Below are positions 2,934 through 52,448 of a stretch of 64,000 nucleotides of DNA, piece by piece. The translations under genes were made by a program, and so were the position numbers. Position 1 is the stretch's first letter. Every line of letters begins with the position of its first letter. Origin of the DNA: a virus (taxonomy: Duplodnaviria > Caudoviricetes); IMG/VR virus record IMGVR_UViG_3300031857_000156, positions 79 through 64,078 of that record; one strand, 5' to 3'. Below the pieces are notes generated by a model, which was given only the letters and a program-made list of their open reading frames with translations, did not search any database and was not told the origin of the DNA.

Positions 2934-5107
2934 TACGGGCGCTCGTCGCCGTACTCGGCAGTAATTAAAACACGGCCCATTTCAAAGTTGCCGTTGACCG
3001 TATTAGAAGAAAACTTAATTTTTGATTCGCGGTTTTCGATTCGCAAATCAACTTTACCGTCATCTGGGCCAAACGTAAATATTGTTGAGTTAGACTGCTC
3101 GCCCCTAGCAAACTTTTTGCCAAGAATTTGCAAAGTCATGTCCCCGGTTTGCAAAAAGTCCGGTTCAATACGGCGAAGGTGAAGTCGCCGATTCACTCCT
3201 TTTGGTGCGTCTTGCGACGGGTCCCCGCCGACCCAGCTTATGTCGCAGGTGGTAATAGAAGCTGGTATAGCAAGCACGCCGTCATCGCTTTGGCTATTAA
3301 CGCTGTATTCTTGCTGCCATATTGTGTAACCATTTCTAACTGGATACACCGCGCTTCCTACAGCGGGCGGCGAAACAAACGCTGCGGTTGCCGTGATTAA
3401 GGTTGCGTTAACTGCTAAGATGTACTCCGCAGTGGCAACTGTGTAATAGTCATCTTGCGGGTTTGTATTAAACTGGAAGTTAGTGCCCGGCGGCAGATTT
3501 GATGTTGCGTCGCCATTTAAATAAAACTGATCGTTGCCCGGGGCTGGCTCTCCGCCAGGGGTTGCGATAATCGTGATTGGCTGGCCGAAGGTAGCAAAGT
3601 ACTCCCAGCCACACCAAATCGGTGTCGGAAACACCTCAGTCGTGTAACCACACGACCTACGCGCTCCGTCAGCCTGACCTGCATCGTACCAGAGCTTATC
3701 TTTAACGTTGTAGATGATCGCGTCCGTGCATTCTGTTGCCGTGCCGCGGGGATAAAAAAACCAAATCTCATTATATCTGGGCACTTTTGTAGCCCAAACT
3801 TTCTGGCGTTGCTCAAAGTTCAGATTGTCGTAGAACCAGTTTATGTTTTTATCGTTGGCTAACACCTGAACCGAGCCGTTGTATAGATAAAAACGGTCAA
3901 CGCCAGCCCAGTAATAAAGACCGTCCATTTCTACGACGGCATTTGATGATAGTATTGAGGTTTGGCTGGAAATGATGTCGTACTTCCAATACTGCTGTGG
4001 ATTGCCAGTAAAAGATACACGAATAAGGCTGTCCGTTGCCCAAAACAATCCTGACGGAGAGTTAGTTCCGCCGCGCACCGGCATGCCCTTTACTATCTTA
4101 CCCGCGGTCATGTTGACCCGGTTAGCCAGCGGACCATTCCAATCGTTAAAGTTTTGGTCCGCGTAGGTTGCTTCGACGTGGTTATTTGCTATAAAACCAT
4201 TTGATCCGTAAACAAAGATAAACGGATACAGCACGCACACGCCGCCGTCTACTTCGATTGGAGCATACGTTGGGTTTGTTCCATAGCTATCTGACAGCGC
4301 GGAAAAACTCCAAGTGTTTCCGGGTCCTGGTAAAATGTTTCCTGCGTACACCGGCGTTGGATTACCGTTGTCAATGTTTTCTAAATTTAATCCTGGATGA
4401 GCAAGGACCTGAAGCGCTCCGCCTTGCGGATTATATTGCATGTCAAATTGCCACAGTATTCTGTCGCTGCCAATTGGAAACGTGCTTGTAGCAATCCAAG
4501 CTGTTGACGGCGCCGATATTGGCATGGCCGGGCTGACTGTAACTGTAGTATAAATGTTAGCCGGAACAGCTACAATATTGTCACTATTCTCGGCATCAAT
4601 TATGTCGCCGGCTTCGCTTAACAAATACTGATTGGCAACATTGGCGTTTGAGGTAACTGCGGTTACCGTGTAAACTTGAGCGCCTGGAGTTTGACTAAAA
4701 ACAATTTTTGTGCCAACTGGAAACTTTGACACAAGATTACCCAGCACAGAAAAACTGCTGGCGTTTGAAAACATAATTGTAAAAGGGGAGTAGCCTACTT
4801 TAATTGTTGCCGGGTAAGGCCCGCTTCCCTGACCAAGTGTAGTGCCAGTAATAAAAGCGTCAACTGTGCTTTGATTACCCACAAACATGTAATTTAAACT
4901 GTTGTAGGCATTAATAATCATGCCTCGAGGAATGCCGCCCGGGTCGCGAAACATCTGCCGATAGCCGCCCATCTTCTTAGGCACGCCGCGCTGAAACCGA
5001 GTCCAAACACCGTCGGTAAACTCTCGCGACTCAAACGTAGTTCCGTCGCGTTTAATGCCAGGCTTTACACCCAGCGTGTAAATCAGCGCAAGGTTTTGGT
5101 CAGCCAT
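2933..5107 (-). CDS. Putative tail nozzle/stabilisation protein (P22 gp10/T7 gp12-like role)
   Basis: 724 aa, beta-rich, positioned between adaptor genes and internal-protein genes; role inferred from synteny. Confidence 0.6.
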   Translation of the reverse strand: MADQNLALIYTLGVKPGIKRDGTTFESREFTDGVWTRFQRGVPKKMGGYRQMFRDPGGIPRGMIINAYNSLNYMFVGNQSTVDAFITGTTLGQGSGPYPATIKVGYSPFTIMFSNASSFSVLGNLVSKFPVGTKIVFSQTPGAQVYTVTAVTSNANVANQYLLSEAGDIIDAENSDNIVAVPANIYTTVTVSPAMPISAPSTAWIATSTFPIGSDRILWQFDMQYNPQGGALQVLAHPGLNLENIDNGNPTPVYAGNILPGPGNTWSFSALSDSYGTNPTYAPIEVDGGVCVLYPFIFVYGSNGFIANNHVEATYADQNFNDWNGPLANRVNMTAGKIVKGMPVRGGTNSPSGLFWATDSLIRVSFTGNPQQYWKYDIISSQTSILSSNAVVEMDGLYYWAGVDRFYLYNGSVQVLANDKNINWFYDNLNFEQRQKVWATKVPRYNEIWFFYPRGTATECTDAIIYNVKDKLWYDAGQADGARRSCGYTTEVFPTPIWCGWEYFATFGQPITIIATPGGEPAPGNDQFYLNGDATSNLPPGTNFQFNTNPQDDYYTVATAEYILAVNATLITATAAFVSPPAVGSAVYPVRNGYTIWQQEYSVNSQSDDGVLAIPASITTCDISWVGGDPSQDAPKGVNRRLHLRRIEPDFLQTGDMTLQILGKKFARGEQSNSTIFTFGPDDGKVDLRIENRESKIKFSSNTVNGNFEMGRVLITAEYGDERP

Positions 5108-5109
5108 TT

Positions 5110-6378
5110 TTAAAACGTGCCGCCGGGAATTAAGCCTGCATTAAATGTTGCGGTGGTTGAGACTTGGGGCGACCCTGGGTTTGTGTTGTTAAAGCGCATC
5201 ATGTCAGCGCCGTTGGTTGCGACACGCATGTCGTTCGTGCCAGCCAAATACAAGCCGGTGTCGGTGTTGCTGGTAAACGTGAAGGACGGAGCAGACACGG
5301 AGCCGTTATCGGCGTAGTAAACGCCGGTCGTGGATTGTGTCAGGATGTACAGGTCCACCCCATCGCTTAACAGGATGGCCGTGACGCCGTTTGCAAAGGA
5401 CACCGGAGCTCCGAGGCCACCATCAATTTGGAAAGTGATTGAATACCCGCTTTGTCCTGTGGCGTTATTGACCACATAAATCTGCGTAATGGCCGGCAGA
5501 GTAACGGCTAGGTTTTGAGTTCGCGTTCCCGATGTCGCAACATAAGTCTGAATGGTCGGCGCAAAAGTAATAAGACTTAATGTGTTTCCAACAATATTAT
5601 CTACGTCGTAAACGGCGGAACTGTACGTAACAACAGACTGACTTGATAAACCTATTGTAAAAAAGTGCCCTGTGTTTTTATTAAGGCAAACAAGCGCAGA
5701 ATCGCCGGGATAAAAAGTAACTGTTGAAGTGCCGTTAATTGTGTTGGCACCTTGAGATGACACTGATAATGATCCAGTGCCTCCGTTGCGGATCATTATG
5801 TACCAGCCTGTGCTTACAGATGCCGCGGTTGGGAGGGTAAACACACCGGCGCCGCCAGTCCAAACATAAGAATAAGCACGAGTAGCTTCATTGAGTGTGG
5901 GGGCTACGGCCGTTTCAATAGTTATTGTGGAGGTTTGCAATAACCCGTTTAGGTTAATTAGCCCGTTGCCGACTAACGACGCAGCATCGGCAGACGACGT
6001 GCCCGTTCCGTAAGTAAAGTTACGATAAACGCCATCGGTTGTTGAATTGTTGGTTAGATAAAAATACCGAGCTTCGCCGGCCGGGATTGATACGGACGGT
6101 GAACCGGATTGCACTTGTACCGTAAAAGTGTTGCTACCAACGTTTCTAAACAGGATGTCTGTACCGACAGACTGCTGATTTCCTGGGGGCAGCGTGATGG
6201 TTAATCCGCCCGTAGTGGCGTTGCAATCCATGATCCGGGCCACTGCCACGGTCGTTCCGCCGGAGACCGTGTAGTCGGGCCAAGATAGCTCTTGGTTGGT
6301 GCCAAATGTTAGGGCACGGTAACTGACGTCTGTAGGCTGTACTACGTCGCCTGTGAATGGTGAAGTGTATGTAGTCAT
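5110..6378 (-). CDS. Tail structural/fibre-like protein
   Basis: 422 aa, T/G/S-rich; C-terminal GSVSAPSFTFTSNTDTGLY fibre-type motif. Confidence 0.6.
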   Translation of the reverse strand: MTTYTSPFTGDVVQPTDVSYRALTFGTNQELSWPDYTVSGGTTVAVARIMDCNATTGGLTITLPPGNQQSVGTDILFRNVGSNTFTVQVQSGSPSVSIPAGEARYFYLTNNSTTDGVYRNFTYGTGTSSADAASLVGNGLINLNGLLQTSTITIETAVAPTLNEATRAYSYVWTGGAGVFTLPTAASVSTGWYIMIRNGGTGSLSVSSQGANTINGTSTVTFYPGDSALVCLNKNTGHFFTIGLSSQSVVTYSSAVYDVDNIVGNTLSLITFAPTIQTYVATSGTRTQNLAVTLPAITQIYVVNNATGQSGYSITFQIDGGLGAPVSFANGVTAILLSDGVDLYILTQSTTGVYYADNGSVSAPSFTFTSNTDTGLYLAGTNDMRVATNGADMMRFNNTNPGSPQVSTTATFNAGLIPGGTF

Positions 6379-8869: not shown

Positions 8870-8906
8870 GGCAGTGCTCCTTTTAAAAGTTGTGGATTCT
8901 CTTACT

Positions 8907-8917
8907 ACTTATGCAAA
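8907..8917 (-). promoter_or_regulatory. Phage middle/late promoter core (TTTGCATAAGT)
   Basis: Consensus copy upstream of the ATG at 8869. Confidence 0.7.
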
Positions 8918-12624: not shown

Positions 12625-12797
12625 TTACCTTTTGGACATTTTGCTACTTGAAATTGAATTTTTGTTTTTATTGGGCAACCACAAGCTCTACATTGCATGA
12701 CTTTAACAATTGGCATCAGTCTTAATTGATCACATTCCATACAAGTTTTTAACCTTGTTGCTTGTAAATCTTTAACACTAATAATTTGTAAATTCAT
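12618..12797 (-). CDS. Small Cys-rich protein (CxxC...CxxCGC...CPxGKW)
   Basis: 59 aa ORF read by eye: MNLQIISVK...TCMECDQ...QCRACGC...KCPKGKW. Confidence 0.75.
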   Translation of the reverse strand: MNLQIISVKDLQATRLKTCMECDQLRLMPIVKVMQCRACGCPIKTKIQFQVAKCPKGKW

Positions 12798-22803: not shown

Positions 22804-22834
22804 ACTTATGCAAAAAAGGGCCTAAATAGGCCCT
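22804..22834 (-). promoter_or_regulatory. Bipartite phage promoter AGGGC-N18-GCATAAGT
   Basis: Exact 18-nt spacing, shared with four other copies. Confidence 0.75.
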
Positions 22835-26754: not shown

Positions 26755-26785
26755 ACCTATGCAAGACTTTTTTAATTTACGCCCT
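26755..26785 (-). promoter_or_regulatory. Bipartite phage promoter AGGGC-N18-GCATAGGT
   Basis: Exact spacing; lies only a few nt upstream of the ATG at 26748. Confidence 0.7.
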
Positions 26786-27024: not shown

Positions 27025-29771
27025 TAAACTACTCCTTGTGGTGGTTGTTGTGCTTCTATTTGTTGTTGAACTGCCTGCGCCTGCTGACGAAAGGCCTCTT
27101 GCTCTACCGCGATACCATGCTTGCGGATGTCTGCATCGGCCGTGTTAATTGCGTCAATTGCCGACATGATTTGCTCATTCTCAAGCTGCCGCTGCATGCC
27201 GTCTAGCTGAGCGCCTGTCTGCATGGCCGCGATGCGCTCGCGCGATGCGTTGTTGATGTTAGCCGTGGCAATGTTGGTTGCGTTTTTCTGGCTATCAATT
27301 TGACTCTGGGTCTGGTATTTAGCCATGAGCTCTGTGACCCTCTGCTGCAGCTCGGCAACCTTGATTTCGTAGTCTTGCTTTTGCTGAGCCGCCTGCTGTT
27401 GCATCTTAATCATTGCTTCTTGTGCTTTGCGCTCAGTTTCTGCCATCTGCGTTTTCATCAGCACGTTTGCCGTTGGATCCATCGCCGCGGCCTGCTCCAT
27501 AGCAGCCTGCTTAGCCTGCTGTACCTTCTGCACCAGACCCATAATCGCAGGCTGCGCGCCCTGGAAAGTTGCCTCGGCGTCCTGACTTACCATTTCAGCT
27601 GCCAGAGCCAGTGCCTGCTGATCTTCTAACGTCAGCGGTTTTTCTTCGTGCAGACGGAGCGTGTCCTGTCCGCCGGCTGCCTCGGCCACGTATGCGCGCA
27701 TCGACTGCAGATAGTGCAGTGTCAGGTGCTGCTTGATGTGCTCCAAAGCGATAGGCGCAAATTGCGGCCCGATAAGGGGGCTGCCACCATAATTGGGGTC
27801 CTGAGCATACGCCAAGTGAACCTTGATGTGCGCTAAATGATCCTGATCCGGGTAGGCTGCCGCGGGGCGGCCCATGGACATTGCAACGTTCTCCAGGGCC
27901 GGGTTGGCCTCTTTTATTCCATCTGGATCGGGCAATATCTCGCTAATCGCAGGCACTTTTAGCTGCTTCAGAACGCGCCGGTGGGCAGCGCGAAGATCGT
28001 ACAATTGCGGCGCAGAATTAGCTATTTGCAAAATAGCTTGCGCCTGCGCCAGACGCTGTGTCTCTGAGAATATGTTTGGATCCGACACCGGACGGATGTC
28101 GTTATTTGACGCAAAGTCACGCACTTCAATTTCGGTGCCCGATTGGTTGTCCATCTCCTCCAAATACCAATGATTGATACGAGAAAGGATCTTGAACGAC
28201 TTAGCTTGCGAGCGGTGCAGCCGGGCATGGATGCTTGAGAACACCTTTGCACCTTGCTCAATCAGTGCTTGGGTGGTGCCCACTGGCGTGTTAGCGTTTG
28301 CGTCGCCAATCTTTTCCTCGGCGGTCGTCACCACGCCTTTTGCAGCAGTTGTTAACCATCCAAGGAGGTTGTATAAAACACTCGAGGGTTGGTTAAACGG
28401 CAACGGCATAGCCAACTTGCGGACATCGTCCACACCAGGGGCACCTTCGATCTCTAGAACCTGCGTCGGTTCAATCCGGTCACTTTGGCCAGAGATGCGT
28501 CCACCTTTAAGCTTAAGCATCGTCTGACTGTTGTTAATGTGTGCAGAATCCAACAGAGCGCGAAGAGCGCCAGTAAGGGCGGCAGACAGACCACCAATAA
28601 GATGAGGAAGCCCAATGGCGTACGCACCACGCCACGGGATAAACTTAAACTCAACGATCCAATCGAGCTTTGTAAGTTTTTCATCGCCGGATTCCCAGTT
28701 ACGATAAAGCGACAGCACCTTGTTGCTGCTGTCATCAATGGTCAGAATGTAAGGAGCGCGGCGGCCTTCTGTTTCAGGATCGTCTTCTAAGCGCAAAAAG
28801 CAAGTGATCTCATAAACACGACGGACGTTGTCGATGTTTTTCTGCGGGATTGACCGGCCTTCAATTTTGTTGTTTGCCATGGTTGAGCGCGTTTGTTCAT
28901 CTTGCTCAATACCAGCGGGCGGAATGCTGTCAATGTCACGATAAAGACCCTGATCCGTGCGCTGACGAAACACGTCTTCTGTGATGTCTTGTTGCTCAGT
29001 TACTCGAGGCGAGGTGTAAAAGTTTGTTGTTGAGTAAGGCAGGAAGATGTTGTCAATCGGAATCCACTCGCAAGTGGGCCGAAGCTGTTCATTATCCCAA
29101 CGCCATTTAAAGTACTGCGAGCCGCCAAGTGGAAGCTGCGTAAGGATCTGCTCCATCTCATCACGGTACTCCTCAACCTGCTCTGTAAGCTGCCAGTTAA
29201 GAAACTGTGATTTGCGCTCAGCAACATCTACACGCTTGCGGTCTGCCTCGCCTTTTATTTCCGACTTAACAATCCCTTCAGGCGGGAGTAGCTCTCTTGC
29301 GCTAGACGCCGCAAAGTCGACACAAGCTTCCGCCATAACTGGATGCACAACTTTGGAAGCTCCGTCAAACGTTGCGCCACCAGGCGCGTCTTTGCCAAGT
29401 CCTGTCCTTCGTAGTCCTTCTTCATACTGTTTGTCCCTTTCTTTGCGTGCTTCGCGATCAACAGTGATGTACTCTTGATATTCGTTAGCAAGCGCTTCTA
29501 AGACGCCCTGATCCATCGTTTCAGCCAAGTTTGCATAAAACTCTGGATTTTCGTTGGGGCCTTCTTTTGGTGTGTAATTAATGACCACCGAGCCATCATC
29601 AAGCTCAATGACCTCTTCATCGCTTTCGCCCGGGTCCAAGCCAAGAACTTCTTCAATGTTTTCTATCTCTTGCTCTTGCATCAAAGACTCTTGAAAGTCT
29701 TCGTCTTTTTGCAAGTCAAGAGAAGTTAACGAGGCTCCTTGCTGTATCGGCATTTGGGGCAGTTGCGGCAT
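27024..29771 (-). CDS. Portal protein
   Basis: 915 aa downstream of terL, with a Q/A-rich C-terminal helical barrel as in P22-like portals. Confidence 0.88.
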   Translation of the reverse strand: MPQLPQMPIQQGASLTSLDLQKDEDFQESLMQEQEIENIEEVLGLDPGESDEEVIELDDGSVVINYTPKEGPNENPEFYANLAETMDQGVLEALANEYQEYITVDREARKERDKQYEEGLRRTGLGKDAPGGATFDGASKVVHPVMAEACVDFAASSARELLPPEGIVKSEIKGEADRKRVDVAERKSQFLNWQLTEQVEEYRDEMEQILTQLPLGGSQYFKWRWDNEQLRPTCEWIPIDNIFLPYSTTNFYTSPRVTEQQDITEDVFRQRTDQGLYRDIDSIPPAGIEQDEQTRSTMANNKIEGRSIPQKNIDNVRRVYEITCFLRLEDDPETEGRRAPYILTIDDSSNKVLSLYRNWESGDEKLTKLDWIVEFKFIPWRGAYAIGLPHLIGGLSAALTGALRALLDSAHINNSQTMLKLKGGRISGQSDRIEPTQVLEIEGAPGVDDVRKLAMPLPFNQPSSVLYNLLGWLTTAAKGVVTTAEEKIGDANANTPVGTTQALIEQGAKVFSSIHARLHRSQAKSFKILSRINHWYLEEMDNQSGTEIEVRDFASNNDIRPVSDPNIFSETQRLAQAQAILQIANSAPQLYDLRAAHRRVLKQLKVPAISEILPDPDGIKEANPALENVAMSMGRPAAAYPDQDHLAHIKVHLAYAQDPNYGGSPLIGPQFAPIALEHIKQHLTLHYLQSMRAYVAEAAGGQDTLRLHEEKPLTLEDQQALALAAEMVSQDAEATFQGAQPAIMGLVQKVQQAKQAAMEQAAAMDPTANVLMKTQMAETERKAQEAMIKMQQQAAQQKQDYEIKVAELQQRVTELMAKYQTQSQIDSQKNATNIATANINNASRERIAAMQTGAQLDGMQRQLENEQIMSAIDAINTADADIRKHGIAVEQEAFRQQAQAVQQQIEAQQPPQGVV

Positions 29772-31072: not shown

Positions 31073-31103
31073 ACTTATGCACAATAGCCGCTAGGCGCGC
31101 CCT
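31073..31103 (-). promoter_or_regulatory. Bipartite phage promoter AGGGC-N18-GCATAAGT
   Basis: Exact spacing. Confidence 0.75.
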
Positions 31104-40812: not shown

Positions 40813-41400
40813 ATGGAGCATACCGACTTGAAAAGAGATAGGACAGCGCTGTCAGACTACATCCGGGTGCTGTACAGGCACCCGGTGCTGCCGGTGCAGG
40901 AAGAGGAAAGGCTGTCAGGCATGATACAGGCCGGAGACAACGCAGCGCTGGATAAACTGGTGCGGCACAATCTCCGGTTTGTTATTTCCGTGGTCAAGGA
41001 CATGCCGATTTGGCAGAATGGCTCGGTGCCTTTCGAGGACATTGTGGCCATCGGCAACGAGTCCCTGCTCAAGGCAGCCAGGAAGTGGGTGCCTCGTAAT
41101 GGCGCGAGGTTTGCAACGTACGCTAAGCCATTCATTGTCAAGGGTATCAGGAGGACCCTTGATAATGAATGGTCAATGATCCGCGTGCCGGTAAACATCC
41201 TCGAAGAGATACGCCGCATGAAGTATCTCGAGCGGGTTTTATCGCAAGAGCTCAGACGCGAGCCAACGCAGGCCGAGCTTGCCAATCGAATGAAAGTGCA
41301 CGAGAGCCGGATAGTCGAGCTGCAAAACTTACTGACTCTCGAGCCAGTATCGCTTGAGGCATACAATCAGGAGAAATTCCACGAGGAGAGCGAAGAATGA
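40813..41400 (+). CDS. Sigma70-family factor with regions 1.2, 2 and 3 only
   Basis: LSDYIR...EEERL (1.2), HNLRFV...RFATYA (2), IRVP...REPTQAELA...PVSLE (3); stops before region 4. Confidence 0.88.
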   Translation: MEHTDLKRDRTALSDYIRVLYRHPVLPVQEEERLSGMIQAGDNAALDKLVRHNLRFVISVVKDMPIWQNGSVPFEDIVAIGNESLLKAARKWVPRNGARFATYAKPFIVKGIRRTLDNEWSMIRVPVNILEEIRRMKYLERVLSQELRREPTQAELANRMKVHESRIVELQNLLTLEPVSLEAYNQEKFHEESEE

Positions 41401-48791: not shown

Positions 48792-49014
48792 GTTTGATTT
48801 AGAGCAGGCGCTTCTGGTTTTGTGGGGGTCTGCAGAAGACGTAATGTTGTTTTTCGAGCACTACTATGAGCATCACGAATCCATGTCCGCGGATGATGTG
48901 GCAAACACGCTGCTGGGGTTGCATCAGCTAATCCACATGCGCGGACAAAAAGCCTTTAACATTTTTGAAAGTCTTGTACATGAAAATCCCAAAAAATCTG
49001 TTGACACCATTTAA
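48751..49014 (+). CDS. Hypothetical protein (RFDLEQ motif)
   Basis: 87 aa, GAGG RBS. Confidence 0.65.
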   Translation: MKSQKKSPFAKPNRFDLEQALLVLWGSAEDVMLFFEHYYEHHESMSADDVANTLLGLHQLIHMRGQKAFNIFESLVHENPKKSVDTI

Positions 49015-49127
49015 AAACCCTTTTGTTGAAGCCAAGCGCCAGGAGCTGGCCATAGCAATGACAAAGAAAATGATTAACGAGGCCATAAAGGACGGCAAAG
49101 GTCTGGCCAAACAACGTGATGAAATGC

Positions 49128-49158
49128 AGGGCAAAAAGCCTAAAGATTCTGCATAAGT
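49128..49158 (+). promoter_or_regulatory. Bipartite phage promoter AGGGC-N18-GCATAAGT
   Basis: Exact spacing; upstream of the ncRNA region. Confidence 0.75.
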
Positions 49159-49249
49159 AGTAGTAAGCACGTCGGGAGACGCCCTACTACCCCGGACGCC
49201 TCTAATGGGTTGCGACTACGCGGCCGGGCGCACCACCGGGGACCCCTAT

Positions 49250-49330
49250 GGGGTTGGAATAGTTTCGACGTGGGCCAAGGCCTAAGCGGCAACCTTGCGG
49301 ACCTGGGTGCGATTCCCAGCAACTCCACCA
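49250..49330 (+). ncRNA. Mini-tmRNA (tRNA-like domain only)
   Basis: GGGGTTG/CAACTCC-A-CCA acceptor with G3:U70, stemless D-loop ending TTCGAC, GGAC linker, T arm CTGGG-TGCGATT-CCCAG; only about 30 nt between the halves. Confidence 0.85.
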
Positions 49331-49337
49331 AAACATT

Positions 49338-49440
49338 GCCGGGGAAACCGGGGAAACCGGTGACATTTTTGATCATTGTAAATTTGAAATCTTATTTTTT
49401 AGTAATGAAAAAATACCCCGGTTTTACCGGTTTGCCCGGC
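49338..49440. repeat. Third iteron-like palindrome around an AT-rich core
   Basis: CCGGGGAAACCGGGGAAACCGG ... CCGGTTTTACCGGTTTGCCCGG. Confidence 0.6.
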
Positions 49441-49457
49441 GCGTGAAAGGAAACACT

Positions 49458-49646
49458 ATGGAAGACTTCAAAACATTGCCCAAGATGGCAACCGGAGGCT
49501 CCGCAAAGCCTGGCCTGTACGCCAACATCCACGCCAAGCAAGAGCGCATCAAGCGCGGCTCTGGCGAGAAGATGCGTAAGCCCGGCTCCCCTGGCGCCCC
49601 GACAGCTAAGGCATTCAGAGAGTCTGCCAAAACCGCTAAGAAGTGA
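49458..49646 (+). CDS. Small basic protein with MATGG motif
   Basis: PGLYANIHAK...KMRKPGSPGAPT; AAGGA RBS. Confidence 0.7.
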   Translation: MEDFKTLPKMATGGSAKPGLYANIHAKQERIKRGSGEKMRKPGSPGAPTAKAFRESAKTAKK

Positions 49647-50729: not shown

Positions 50730-50760
50730 AGGGCACTTTTCAGTGCCCTTTTGCATTAGT
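50730..50760 (+). promoter_or_regulatory. Bipartite phage promoter AGGGC-N18-GCATTAGT, overlapping a terminator-like hairpin
   Basis: AAAAGGGCAC-TTTTCA-GTGCCCTTTT followed by GCATTAGT. Confidence 0.7.
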
Positions 50761-52374: not shown

Positions 52375-52385
52375 TTTGCATAAGT
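52375..52385 (+). promoter_or_regulatory. Phage middle/late promoter core (TTTGCATAAGT)
   Basis: Consensus copy upstream of the SSB gene. Confidence 0.7.
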
Positions 52386-52448
52386 AGTAGTACGGGATTA
52401 AAGAGCTAACCCGATAAATCAGCTCAAACGTCTAACAAGGAAGCCAAG

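What the first reader, a model, noticed from the sequence alone, without database searches (positions are those of the whole stretch)
49250..49330. 81-nt tmRNA lacking the entire mRNA-like domain
Seen: tmRNA-type 5' end (GGGGTTG-GAATAGTTTCGAC) and 3' end (GGAC-CTGGG-TGCGATT-CCCAG-CAACTCC-ACCA) in unpermuted order, with G3:U70 and discriminator A, joined by about 30 nt with no room for pseudoknots or a tag frame. Established: the tRNA-like domain suffices for alanylation and SmpB binding, and tag-less tmRNAs occur in some mitochondria. Inference: a phage SmpB decoy that blocks trans-translation, or an RNA that enters stalled ribosomes without tagging proteins for degradation.
Basis: partly seen in the sequence, partly recalled or inferred. 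Interest (0 to 1): 0.85.

Follow-up and report, generated by a model that had tools for sequence, protein, structure and literature searches.

The report
Phage tag-less mini-tmRNA gene
A lake phage carries a real 81-base gene for only the alanine-accepting, tRNA-like end of the bacterial ribosome-rescue RNA (tmRNA); this kind is already known from mycobacteriophage DS6A and probably interferes with the host's rescue-and-tagging system.

Summary
Window 49250-49330 (+) matches Rfam tmRNA end to end (53.3 bits, cut-off 47), with 312 model positions replaced by 19 nt.

It is a discrete, selected RNA gene:
- Identity is 96-100% in relatives whose flanking genes are 71-91% identical, and conservation starts at G1 and stops at CCA.
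- A model built without this clade recovers it (57.8 bits).
- Across 68 distinct phage sequences the four helices covary, while G1-C72, G2-C71, G3.U70 and discriminator A never change.

It is not an attP site, since four recombinase families give no hit in the complete genome. It is not a tRNA, since there is no anticodon arm.

The kind is already known: a TLD-only tmRNA in mycobacteriophage DS6A, with a similar molecule reported to inhibit tmRNA in E. coli. This scan also noted the kind on other DNA. So this is a new member of a known kind.

The local twist is that its T-loop and acceptor features match Caulobacterales tmRNA, which is two-piece and permuted, whereas the phage RNA is one-piece.

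The mechanism is inferred, not shown: an alanine-charged mimic that competes for host SmpB and stalled ribosomes.

The parts
49128..49158 (+). Putative phage promoter, bipartite motif AGGGC-N18-GCATAAGT. It overlaps the stop codon of the upstream small ORF.
   Evidence: The motif occurs 5 times in the window against 0.08 expected, always on the strand of the local genes (related 16-mer). The core TCTGCATAAGTAG is invariant in the four aligned relatives. The phage encodes a sigma-70 family protein at 40813-41400. Promoter activity is inferred, not shown.
49157..49190 (+). Conserved leader hairpin: GTAGTAG...CTACTAC around CGTC-GGGA-GACG.
   Evidence: It is seen in the sequence and predicted by folding. 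It is conserved in relatives with and without the mini-tmRNA. In relatives lacking the RNA it lies directly before the o67 gene, sometimes followed by a T-run. Its role (leader, processing site or terminator of the upstream unit) is unknown.
49250..49330 (+). TLD-only (CDS-less) one-piece tmRNA gene, 81 nt. Acceptor 5' strand 49250-49256; D-loop analogue 49257-49269; P2 5' strand 49270-49274; apical loop 49275-49293; P2 3' strand 49294-49298; GGAC 49299-49302; T-arm 49303-49319; acceptor 3' strand 49320-49326; ACCA 49327-49330.
   Evidence: RF00023 53.3 bits. Custom model R1 57.8 bits. Covariation over 68 distinct sequences. Identity of 96-100% in relatives whose flanks are 71-91% identical. 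Conservation is bounded exactly by G1 and CCA.
49347..49371 (+). Terminator-like hairpin ACCGGGGAAACCGGT followed by a T-run, 17 nt after the CCA end.
   Evidence: Found by the consensus scan, which found 2 such sites in the 1.5-kb region against 2.4 expected from shuffles, so this is weak on its own. It is not conserved in relatives: the trailer has no detectable similarity.
48965..49156 (+). Upstream neighbour o63, a small ORF of unknown function.
   Evidence: ORF list. No PHROG or Pfam hit. Syntenic in relatives. It is context only.
49443..49646 (+). Downstream neighbour o67, a small basic protein (phrog_16028).
   Evidence: E 6.6e-27. It is present in relatives with and without the mini-tmRNA, so it is not tied to the RNA.

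Best explanation
The element is a genuine gene for a tag-less mini-tmRNA: the tRNA-like domain (TLD) of tmRNA plus a short P2 helix capped by a 19-nt loop. It has no pseudoknots, no resume codon and no tag reading frame. It is probably transcribed from a phage-specific promoter about 90 nt upstream and trimmed to G1 and CCA like a tRNA. The host alanyl-tRNA synthetase would charge it with alanine (G3.U70, A73), and host SmpB would bind it (UUCGAC/GGAC elbow). The phage has no smpB of its own. The most likely role is competition with the host tmRNA for SmpB and for stalled ribosomes, which would shut down or divert trans-translation and proteolysis tagging during infection. Shown here: the RNA's identity, boundaries, conservation, covariation and genomic setting. 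Inferred: expression, processing, charging, SmpB binding and the inhibitory effect.
For: Identity. RF00023 matches end to end at 53.3 bits. R1, built without this clade, gives 57.8 bits, and gives 54.9 bits for the published DS6A element.

Selection. The element is 100, 97.5 and 96.3% identical in relatives whose flanking genes are 83-91, 71-81 and 73-77% identical. Conservation starts at G1 and ends at CCA. Within the clade there are compensatory changes in the acceptor stem, T-stem and P2.

Class-wide structure. 95.0% of cells are paired against 41-53% when partners are slid. 410 cells have changes on both sides against 63-84. G1-C72, G2-C71 and G3.U70 are invariant in 68 of 68 distinct sequences while acceptor pairs 4-7 covary. 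The discriminator is A in 68 of 68. Invariance of the alanine identity set argues that charging matters.

SmpB contacts. The nucleotides reported to contact SmpB (U17, C18, G19, A334; passages read in PMC8363625) correspond to the retained UUCGAC and GGAC. Mapping the E. coli numbers onto this RNA is my own, made through the Rfam consensus.

Precedent. A similar TLD-only molecule, chargeable or not, strongly inhibits tmRNA in E. coli, perhaps by titrating SmpB (PMC4131195 and PMC11915505 citing Mao et al. 2009). A truncated TLD-only tmRNA with SmpB and EF-Tu binds the ribosome, and peptidyl transfer to a TLD-only tmRNA occurs.

Setting. There is no phage smpB. The T-loop and acceptor features match Caulobacterales-type tmRNA, as expected for a mimic of the host molecule. 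A recurring promoter motif lies upstream.
Against: There is no evidence of expression: no RNA run was found to hold the phage. Nothing here tests charging, SmpB binding or any effect on tagging.

As cited, inhibition in E. coli did not require chargeability. The strict conservation of the alanine identity set is therefore not explained by pure SmpB titration, and it fits the tag-free rescue rival at least as well.

The element is dispensable. At least 30 related loci span the same interval without it, 26 of 30 related loci searched with R1 have no match, and the nearest cultured phages lack it (0 of 3).

Folding energy is no better than shuffles (z -0.31). The alignment used for covariation was fitted to the model, and the DNA pattern that collected the class fixed TTCGAC, GGAC and the GGG/CCC of the T-stem, so those positions say nothing. 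Mao et al. 2009 could not be read.
Confidence: 0.55

Rival explanations
1. Tag-free ribosome rescue. The alanyl-mini-tmRNA, with SmpB and EF-Tu, enters ribosomes stalled on broken mRNAs, which are abundant when host or phage nucleases cut messages. It accepts the nascent chain and lets the ribosome be recycled without a degradation tag, through drop-off and peptidyl-tRNA hydrolase or another release route. This would add rescue capacity for the phage rather than block it.
For: The alanine identity set G1-C72, G2-C71, G3.U70 and A73 is invariant in 68 of 68 distinct sequences while neighbouring pairs covary, so charging is under selection. Inhibition by titration reportedly does not need charging. 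Peptidyl transfer to a TLD-only tmRNA occurs in vitro. CDS-less tmRNAs of mitochondria and some plastids are thought to help with incomplete mRNAs. In Streptomyces phages the homologue sits inside a tRNA array next to an RNA ligase gene, which is a translation-support context.
Against: Without a resume codon and stop codon there is no known way to release the peptidyl-RNA. The one experimental report cited for this kind of molecule found inhibition, not rescue. No release factor or hydrolase gene was noticed beside the element.
Confidence: 0.27
2. Decoy or partner for some other factor that recognises tmRNA or tRNA-like shapes. Examples are a host defence nuclease, RNase R, or a phage protein that uses t(m)RNA fragments. 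In this reading the ribosome is not the target.
For: A phage anti-CRISPR protein, AcrIIIA1, co-purifies with tRNA and tmRNA fragments that include the TLD, and these bind RNase R. tRNA-like decoys are a plausible counter-defence. The element is accessory within its phage clade, as counter-defence genes often are.
Against: There is no AcrIIIA1-like or other candidate partner next to the element; the neighbours have no informative family. The strict retention of SmpB-contact nucleotides and the AlaRS identity set points to the trans-translation machinery itself.
Confidence: 0.1
3. Integration site (attP) or a decaying remnant of a captured host tmRNA gene, with no function as an RNA.
For: tmRNA genes are frequent integration sites, and phages carry their 3' ends. 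The 32-nt 3' end of the diverged phage version (L017) is identical to that of 6 of 80 bacterial loci.
Against: PF00589, PF00239, PF07508 and PF00665 give no hit in a complete, terminally repeated genome. Both halves of the TLD are present. Double-sided compensatory changes keep all helices paired. The element is far better conserved than its flanks.
Confidence: 0.03
4. An unusual alanine tRNA, for example one without a D-stem, that decodes alanine codons.
For: It has G3.U70, A73 and a tRNA-like acceptor and T-arm. An earlier scan note (e1-6042632) reports a look-alike that proved to be a D-stem-less tRNA-Ala.
Against: There is no anticodon arm. No 5-bp stem with a 7-nt loop carrying U33 and R37 exists in positions 21-50; the best candidate has 4 of 5 pairs, no U33 and 'anticodon' GCA. 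ARAGORN calls no tRNA. Rfam's clan competition keeps tmRNA. The tmRNA-specific UUCGAC and GGAC are present.
Confidence: 0.02

Closest known systems
TLD-only (CDS-less) tmRNA of Mycobacterium phage DS6A (JN698994.1, 28478-28560; listed as 'TLD only' in Hudson et al. 2014, PMC4131195; Nawrocki et al. 2025, PMC11915505; Mao et al. 2009, which I could not read)
   Same: Same architecture and size: 83 against 81 nt, one-piece standard order, acceptor stem with G3.U70 and discriminator A, D-loop analogue, short P2 closed by a small loop, T-arm, and no tag frame. Both are found by one model, R1: 54.9 and 57.8 bits. Both lie in phage genomes without smpB context.
   Different: DS6A is a temperate actinophage with a tyrosine integrase. 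This phage shows none of the four recombinase families tested and probably infects an alphaproteobacterium. The DS6A element scores below the Rfam cut-off (43.2 bits) and does not encode CCA. This one scores above it and encodes CCA. This one carries an alphaproteobacterial-type T-loop (UGCGAUU).
Two-piece, circularly permuted tmRNA of Alphaproteobacteria (Rfam RF01849), as in Caulobacter, Brevundimonas, Phenylobacterium and Asticcacaulis
   Same: It shares the lineage-typical T-loop with G at its second position. In the diverged phage version (L017) the acceptor stem GGGGCCG/CGGCUCC, the T-stem and the whole 32-nt 3' end are also the same. The UAAGCGG stretch of the phage loop also occurs just 5' of the P2 strand in the bacterial acceptor piece.
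   Different: The bacterial gene is permuted (acceptor piece, then loop, then coding piece), is about 360 nt long and encodes a tag. The phage gene is in standard order, one piece, 81 nt, with no tag. The window's own acceptor stem (GGGGUUG/CAACUCC) was not found among the 80 bacterial loci returned.
CDS-less tmRNAs of jakobid and oomycete mitochondria and of Mallomonadaceae plastids (Nawrocki et al. 2025; Jacob et al. 2004 as cited there)
   Same: They are tmRNA reduced to little more than the TLD, with no tag frame. The plastid forms are about 65 bp, and Jakoba libera has a 're-permuted' standard order.
   Different: These are organellar genes that co-occur with a dedicated SmpB and are thought to serve rescue. 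This one is a phage accessory gene acting alongside an intact host tmRNA.
Full-length phage tmRNAs (cluster C mycobacteriophages such as Bxz1, Bacillus phage G, and marine myophages such as Melnitz with two-piece tmRNA)
   Same: They are phage-encoded members of the tmRNA family.
   Different: Those keep the mRNA-like domain and tag. This one has none.

Membership tests
tmRNA, CDS-less 'TLD-only' standard form | 7-bp acceptor stem with G3.U70, discriminator A73 and a 3' CCA | tested here: met
   GGGGUUG/CAACUCC-ACCA. G3.U70 is invariant in 68 of 68 distinct class members and the discriminator is A in 68 of 68.
tmRNA, CDS-less 'TLD-only' standard form | tmRNA-type elbow: unpaired D-loop analogue ending UUCGAC and the GGAC linker before the T-arm (SmpB contact region) | tested here: met
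   Aligned to the RF00023 consensus with posterior probabilities marked '*'. The contact nucleotides are described in PMC8363625.
tmRNA, CDS-less 'TLD-only' standard form | T-arm with a 5-bp stem and a 7-nt loop | tested here: met
   CUGGG-UGCGAUU-CCCAG. The helix is 100% paired with 3 covarying pairs across the class. The loop has G in place of the usual second U, as in alphaproteobacterial tmRNA.
tmRNA, CDS-less 'TLD-only' standard form | P2 helix adjoining the TLD | tested here: met
   GUGGG/CUUGC, 5 bp including 3 G.U pairs. All 6 modelled P2 pairs change on both sides across the class, with 92.8% paired.
tmRNA, CDS-less 'TLD-only' standard form | Absence of the mRNA-like domain, tag frame and pseudoknots | tested here: met
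   312 model positions are replaced by 19 nt. The whole RNA is 81 nt.
Canonical tmRNA (functional trans-translation RNA) | Resume codon, tag reading frame with a stop codon, and a pseudoknot ring | tested here: not met
   Only a 19-nt loop lies between the P2 strands. ARAGORN finds no tmRNA or tag peptide.
tmRNA (any form) | Alanylation by AlaRS and binding by SmpB | not testable with these tools
   Only the sequence determinants are present.
tmRNA (any form) | Expressed as a stable, processed RNA | tested here: inconclusive
   No RNA holder was listed for this phage. The promoter-like motif and terminator-like hairpin are only predictions.
tRNA-Ala | Anticodon arm with a 7-nt loop (U33, R37) and an alanine anticodon | tested here: not met
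   No such arm exists in positions 21-50. ARAGORN finds no tRNA.
Phage attP at a tmRNA gene | An integrase or recombinase in the genome, and only the 3' part of the target gene carried | tested here: not met
   PF00589, PF00239, PF07508 and PF00665 give no hit in the complete genome. Both halves of the TLD are present.

The most novel reading that the evidence does not exclude
The mini-tmRNA is not merely an SmpB sponge but an alanine-charged molecule that acts on the ribosome. Two roles are possible. It could be a tag-free rescue device that frees ribosomes stalled on cleaved mRNAs during infection while sparing truncated phage proteins from tagging. Or it could be a poison that parks peptidyl-mini-tmRNA on stalled host ribosomes. 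On this reading, phages of hosts with two-piece tmRNA have rebuilt a one-piece version of the host's tRNA-like domain for the purpose. The invariant AlaRS identity set across 68 distinct sequences, which titration alone does not require, is what keeps this reading open.
Probability: 0.3. Interest if true: 0.7.

Novelty: new member of a known kind. Interest (0 to 1): 0.42.

Why it matters
Trans-translation is the main bacterial ribosome-rescue and quality-control pathway. A phage RNA that mimics only the entry module of tmRNA is a natural inhibitor or modulator of it, and the pathway is an antibiotic target of current interest.

The kind itself is published for one phage, DS6A. This case adds three things:
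- a conserved example in uncultured lake phages of probable Caulobacterales hosts, whose own tmRNA is two-piece;
- clean gene boundaries and a plausible transcription unit;
- together with the IMG/VR scan, evidence that the kind is widespread, strongly covarying and invisible to ARAGORN.

The strict conservation of the alanine identity set poses a testable question: is charging needed for the natural function?

Tried and rejected
Folding energy as evidence. The MFE is no better than shuffles, so I dropped it as an argument.

ARAGORN found nothing in the window or in the 68 related loci, apart from one ordinary tRNA-Thr in L035. It cannot see this class.

Expression. The look-up of sequencing runs listed no RNA holder. 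Three lake metatranscriptome runs of the same study hold next to none of the words. I therefore did not use read laying, and this says nothing about expression.

A T7-like RNA polymerase as reader of the recurring motif. PF00940 gave no hit, but the control genomes were silent too, so the result is uninformative. A sigma-70 family ORF is the better candidate.

The inner hairpin motif CGTCGGGAGACG as a genome-wide repeat. It gave 6 loose matches against 3.3 expected, so it is not repeated.

MAFFT alignments A1 and A2 misaligned the 5' acceptor strand for sequences with a longer D-loop analogue. I did not use them for pair counts. I used a gapless 10-sequence seed (A3) and Infernal realignment instead.

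My simple acceptor-pairing script rejected 5 of 80 IMG/VR loci. The covariance model later matched all 80, so those 5 were parsing failures (different D-loop length, or one indel), not counter-examples.

Cultured relatives as a test system. Caulobacter phages GB2A and RW and the Manatee Spring phage have no RF00023 match (0 of 3).

Literature. Mao et al. 2009 is not held, so its content is known to me only through two citing papers. Searches for TLD-only, mini-tmRNA, tmRNA-like and similar terms and for phage-encoded with tmRNA, SmpB and trans-translation found no further description of this phage class. Supplementary tables of PMC11915505 could list more CDS-less phage entries and were not seen.

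I did not use complex prediction, structure prediction or the large protein searches. No protein claim depends on them.

Full report
THE WINDOW. The window is almost all of a complete 64,078-bp IMG/VR virus with direct terminal repeats. It encodes a T4-type large terminase, a portal, collagen-like fibre proteins, a family A DNA polymerase, a primase, an SNF2-type helicase, a Cas4-like exonuclease, an Enc34-type ssDNA-binding protein, a class II ribonucleotide reductase and a sigma-70 family protein. Searches with PF00589, PF00239, PF07508 and PF00665 found no integrase, resolvase, large serine recombinase or rve transposase. There is no smpB. The nearest cultured phages by TerL infect Caulobacter vibrioides, at 44% identity. 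The only runs listed for this DNA are labelled lake water metagenome.

THE OBSERVATION. Rfam's tmRNA model RF00023 matches end to end at 53.3 bits (gathering score 47, E 3.8e-18). Both ends of the 374-position model align, and 312 internal positions are replaced by 19 nt. This is the only Rfam hit at gathering score in the window. ARAGORN sees nothing. The RNA has these parts:
- a 7-bp acceptor stem with G3.U70, discriminator A and an encoded CCA;
- the tmRNA-type unpaired D-loop analogue ending UUUCGAC;
- a 5-bp P2 helix closing a 19-nt loop;
- the GGAC linker;
- a T-arm.
The core holds no anticodon arm. Predicted stability is not better than shuffled sequence (z -0.31), so the case rests on homology and comparison.

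IT IS A DISCRETE, SELECTED GENE. The neighbouring helicase retrieved 68 related IMG/VR loci. Gene order there is conserved: helicase, o102, o87, (o63), [element], o67, (o222), o133, exonuclease. RF00023 finds an 80-81-nt end-to-end match in 11 of the 67 related records that could be searched, and never a full-length tmRNA.

Nucleotide identity to the window:

| Relative | Element | Flanking genes |
|---|---|---|
| L004 | 100% | 83-91% |
| L010 | 97.5% | 71-81% |
| L006 | 96.3% | 73-77% |
| L018 | 78% | 70-81% |

The trailer after the element has no detectable similarity in any of them. In the alignment of the whole intergenic region, conservation begins at G1 and ends at CCA. Two relatives even have a small ORF inserted upstream. 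The few differences within the clade are compensatory. In the acceptor stem U-A becomes C-G at one or two pairs; in the T-stem U-A becomes C-G; in P2 G.U becomes G-C or C-G.

The element is accessory. 41 loci have both flanking genes and 30 of these lack it (my count). In them the same upstream motif and hairpin lie directly before o67. The specific model R1 found no match in 26 of the 30 related loci it searched.

THE KIND IS KNOWN. [quoted passage not shown] 2009. [quoted passage not shown] That paper counts 9 'Standard, no CDS' sequences and 79 bacteriophage sequences in a database of 97,179. It also describes CDS-less mitochondrial and plastid forms. Mao et al. 2009 itself is not held. I located the DS6A element at 28478-28560 of JN698994.1 (43.2 bits, below the Rfam cut-off). 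BLAST and Rfam also found unannotated 81-nt homologues inside the tRNA arrays of Streptomyces phages LuckySocke and pSt2308, at 57.1 and 61 bits.

THE CLASS IS LARGE. An IMG/VR scan used a pattern that forces TTCGAC and the GGAC/T-arm to lie 25-45 nt apart. A simple script found a 7-nt acceptor pairing of at least 6 of 7 with G3.U70 in 75 of the 80, giving 59 distinct sequences of 73-94 nt counted through the discriminator. The pattern did not require any of these acceptor features.

I built a covariance model (R1) from a gapless seed of 10 sequences, none from the window's clade. Its hand-drawn structure has a 7-bp acceptor stem, a 6-bp P2, a 3-bp apical hairpin and a 5-bp T-arm. R1 scores the window's element 57.8 bits and DS6A's 54.9 bits. 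It matches all 87 of 87 sources searched at E of 1e-5 or better, including all 80 pattern loci.

Pair counts on the resulting alignment of 68 distinct rows:

| Measure | Proposed structure | Controls |
|---|---|---|
| Cells paired | 95.0% | 40.7-53.3% with partners slid; 66.8% in shuffles |
| Cells changed on both sides | 410 | 63-84 slid |
| Covariation score | 0.653 | at most 0.103 slid |
| Pairs with double-sided change | 16 of 21 | - |

G1-C72, G2-C71 and G3.U70 never vary (68 of 68) while acceptor pairs 4-7 covary. The discriminator is A in 68 of 68. Three caveats apply. The alignment was fitted to the model. The pattern fixed the TTCGAC, GGAC and GGG/CCC positions. The scan was truncated.

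HOST SIGNATURE. The window's clade has an odd T-loop, UGCGAWU, with G where U55 normally stands. Of the 80, 52 carry the acceptor strand CGGCTCC. Of these, 44 share one 32-nt 3' end, and 6 share a 32-nt 3' end identical to the diverged phage version in L017. By my count about 47 of the 80 titles name Caulobacter, Brevundimonas, Phenylobacterium, Asticcacaulis, Caulobacteraceae, Hyphomonadaceae or Maricaulaceae-type genera. That these belong to one order is recalled, not tested. The rest include Patescibacteria, Acidobacteria, Elusimicrobia and Firmicutes with standard-order genes.

Five of five representative loci tested are two-piece, circularly permuted alpha_tmRNA genes (RF01849, 231-243 bits), and G at that T-loop position is the family consensus. 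With the TerL link to Caulobacter phages and the lake-water label, a Caulobacterales host is likely, perhaps 0.5-0.6. The exact acceptor stem of the window's own version was not among the returned bacterial loci.

So the phage carries a one-piece, standard-order copy of a tRNA-like domain that its probable hosts build from two RNAs. That resembles the 're-permuted' mitochondrial gene of Jakoba libera mentioned. It may have arisen from a host gene, or from another phage's mini-tmRNA later adapted to the host; this is open. The loop shares UAAGCGG with the bacterial acceptor piece. It also resembles the CCGCACGCGG loop of the actinophage forms.

TRANSCRIPTION UNIT (INFERRED). A bipartite motif AGGGC-N18-GCATAAGT occurs 5 times in the window against 0.08 expected, each time on the strand of the local genes. 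One copy at 49128-49158 ends about 90 nt upstream of G1. The phage's sigma-70 family protein (regions 2 and 3) is a candidate reader. A conserved hairpin at 49157-49190 follows the motif in all relatives. A terminator-like hairpin with a T-run lies 17 nt after the CCA, but such sites are no more frequent than chance in that region, and it is not conserved. No RNA data were available.

MECHANISM. Three things are shown here: a selected RNA with the AlaRS identity set, the SmpB-contact nucleotides, and no message. Three things are established elsewhere. SmpB contacts the TLD elbow, including C18/G19 and A334 (passages of PMC8363625). A truncated tmRNA with SmpB and EF-Tu binds the ribosome (same passages). 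Peptidyl transfer to a TLD-only tmRNA occurs and is kirromycin-sensitive (discussion passage of PMC3895274 citing Shimizu and Ueda 2006).

From this I infer that the phage RNA is charged, binds host SmpB, and competes with host tmRNA for SmpB and for stalled ribosomes, so that tagging and normal rescue are blocked (confidence about 0.55). The main rival is tag-free rescue or another ribosome-level action that needs charging (about 0.27). It is favoured by the invariant alanine identity set, which titration alone reportedly does not need. A decoy for another TLD-binding factor is possible (about 0.1; compare AcrIIIA1 and t(m)RNA fragments). The attP or remnant reading and the tRNA reading are effectively excluded.

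VERDICT. The functional readings are plausible and match print but remain untested. The kind is already published (DS6A), and follow-up agents of this scan reported it repeatedly on other DNA. This is a new member of a known kind. Its modest added value is the alphaproteobacterial, one-piece-versus-two-piece setting and the clean comparative evidence.

Noticed in passing
window 22804-22834(-), 26755-26785(-), 31073-31103(-), 49128-49158(+), 50730-50760(+); related 16-mer also at 8900-8915(-) and 52377-52392(+): A bipartite motif AGGGC-N18-GCATAAGT recurs upstream of genes on the coding strand: 5 sites against 0.08 expected. It often follows a terminator-like hairpin. It is probably a phage-specific promoter, perhaps read by the phage's sigma-70 family protein at 40813-41400.
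   Followed up: partly
window 49157-49190 and the homologous sites in L008, L013, L014, L016, L019, L021, L024, L025, L030: A hairpin around CGTC-GGGA-GACG directly follows the promoter-like motif. It is conserved across the whole phage group, with or without the mini-tmRNA. In several relatives a T-run follows it. Its role (leader, processing site or terminator) is unknown.
   Followed up: partly
window 49192-49212 and 49236-49256: A 21-nt imperfect direct repeat (71% identity). Its second copy overlaps the first 7 nt of the mini-tmRNA. The first copy reads like a collapsed 5' end (GGGTTG-CGAC). It may be a scar of insertion or duplication. Unexplained.
   Followed up: no
window 49338-49440: A long imperfect inverted repeat (45-nt arms, 73% complementary) fills the space between the mini-tmRNA and o67. 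It contains the tandem CCGGGGAAA repeat. It has no counterpart in L010, L006 or L018.
   Followed up: no
L010 about 5900-6075 and L018 about 3480-3630: In two relatives a small ORF lies between the promoter motif and the mini-tmRNA. It has a signal-peptide-like N-terminus and a Lys/Ala/Glu-rich tail (MKK...AADKKADAKVEKKAEKKAEKKK).
   Followed up: no
window 49443-49646 (+): The small basic protein o67 (phrog_16028) is conserved at nucleotide level with Synechococcus podophages S-CBP1/3/4, a roseophage and a Limnohabitans phage. It is a widely shared phage gene of unknown function.
   Followed up: no
W01 (OR725497.1) 12707-12782 and W02 (PV588686.1) 28249-28324: Each Streptomyces phage has a second, weaker end-to-end RF00023 match of 76 nt (29.9 and 26.2 bits; R1 gives 31 and 29 bits). 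It could be a tRNA-Ala or a second TLD-like RNA. I did not resolve it.
   Followed up: no
L103, L149, L173 (IMG/VR): Three mini-tmRNAs of 93-94 nt carry a longer apical insert with repeated GTCAC motifs. They are a longer variant of the class.
   Followed up: no
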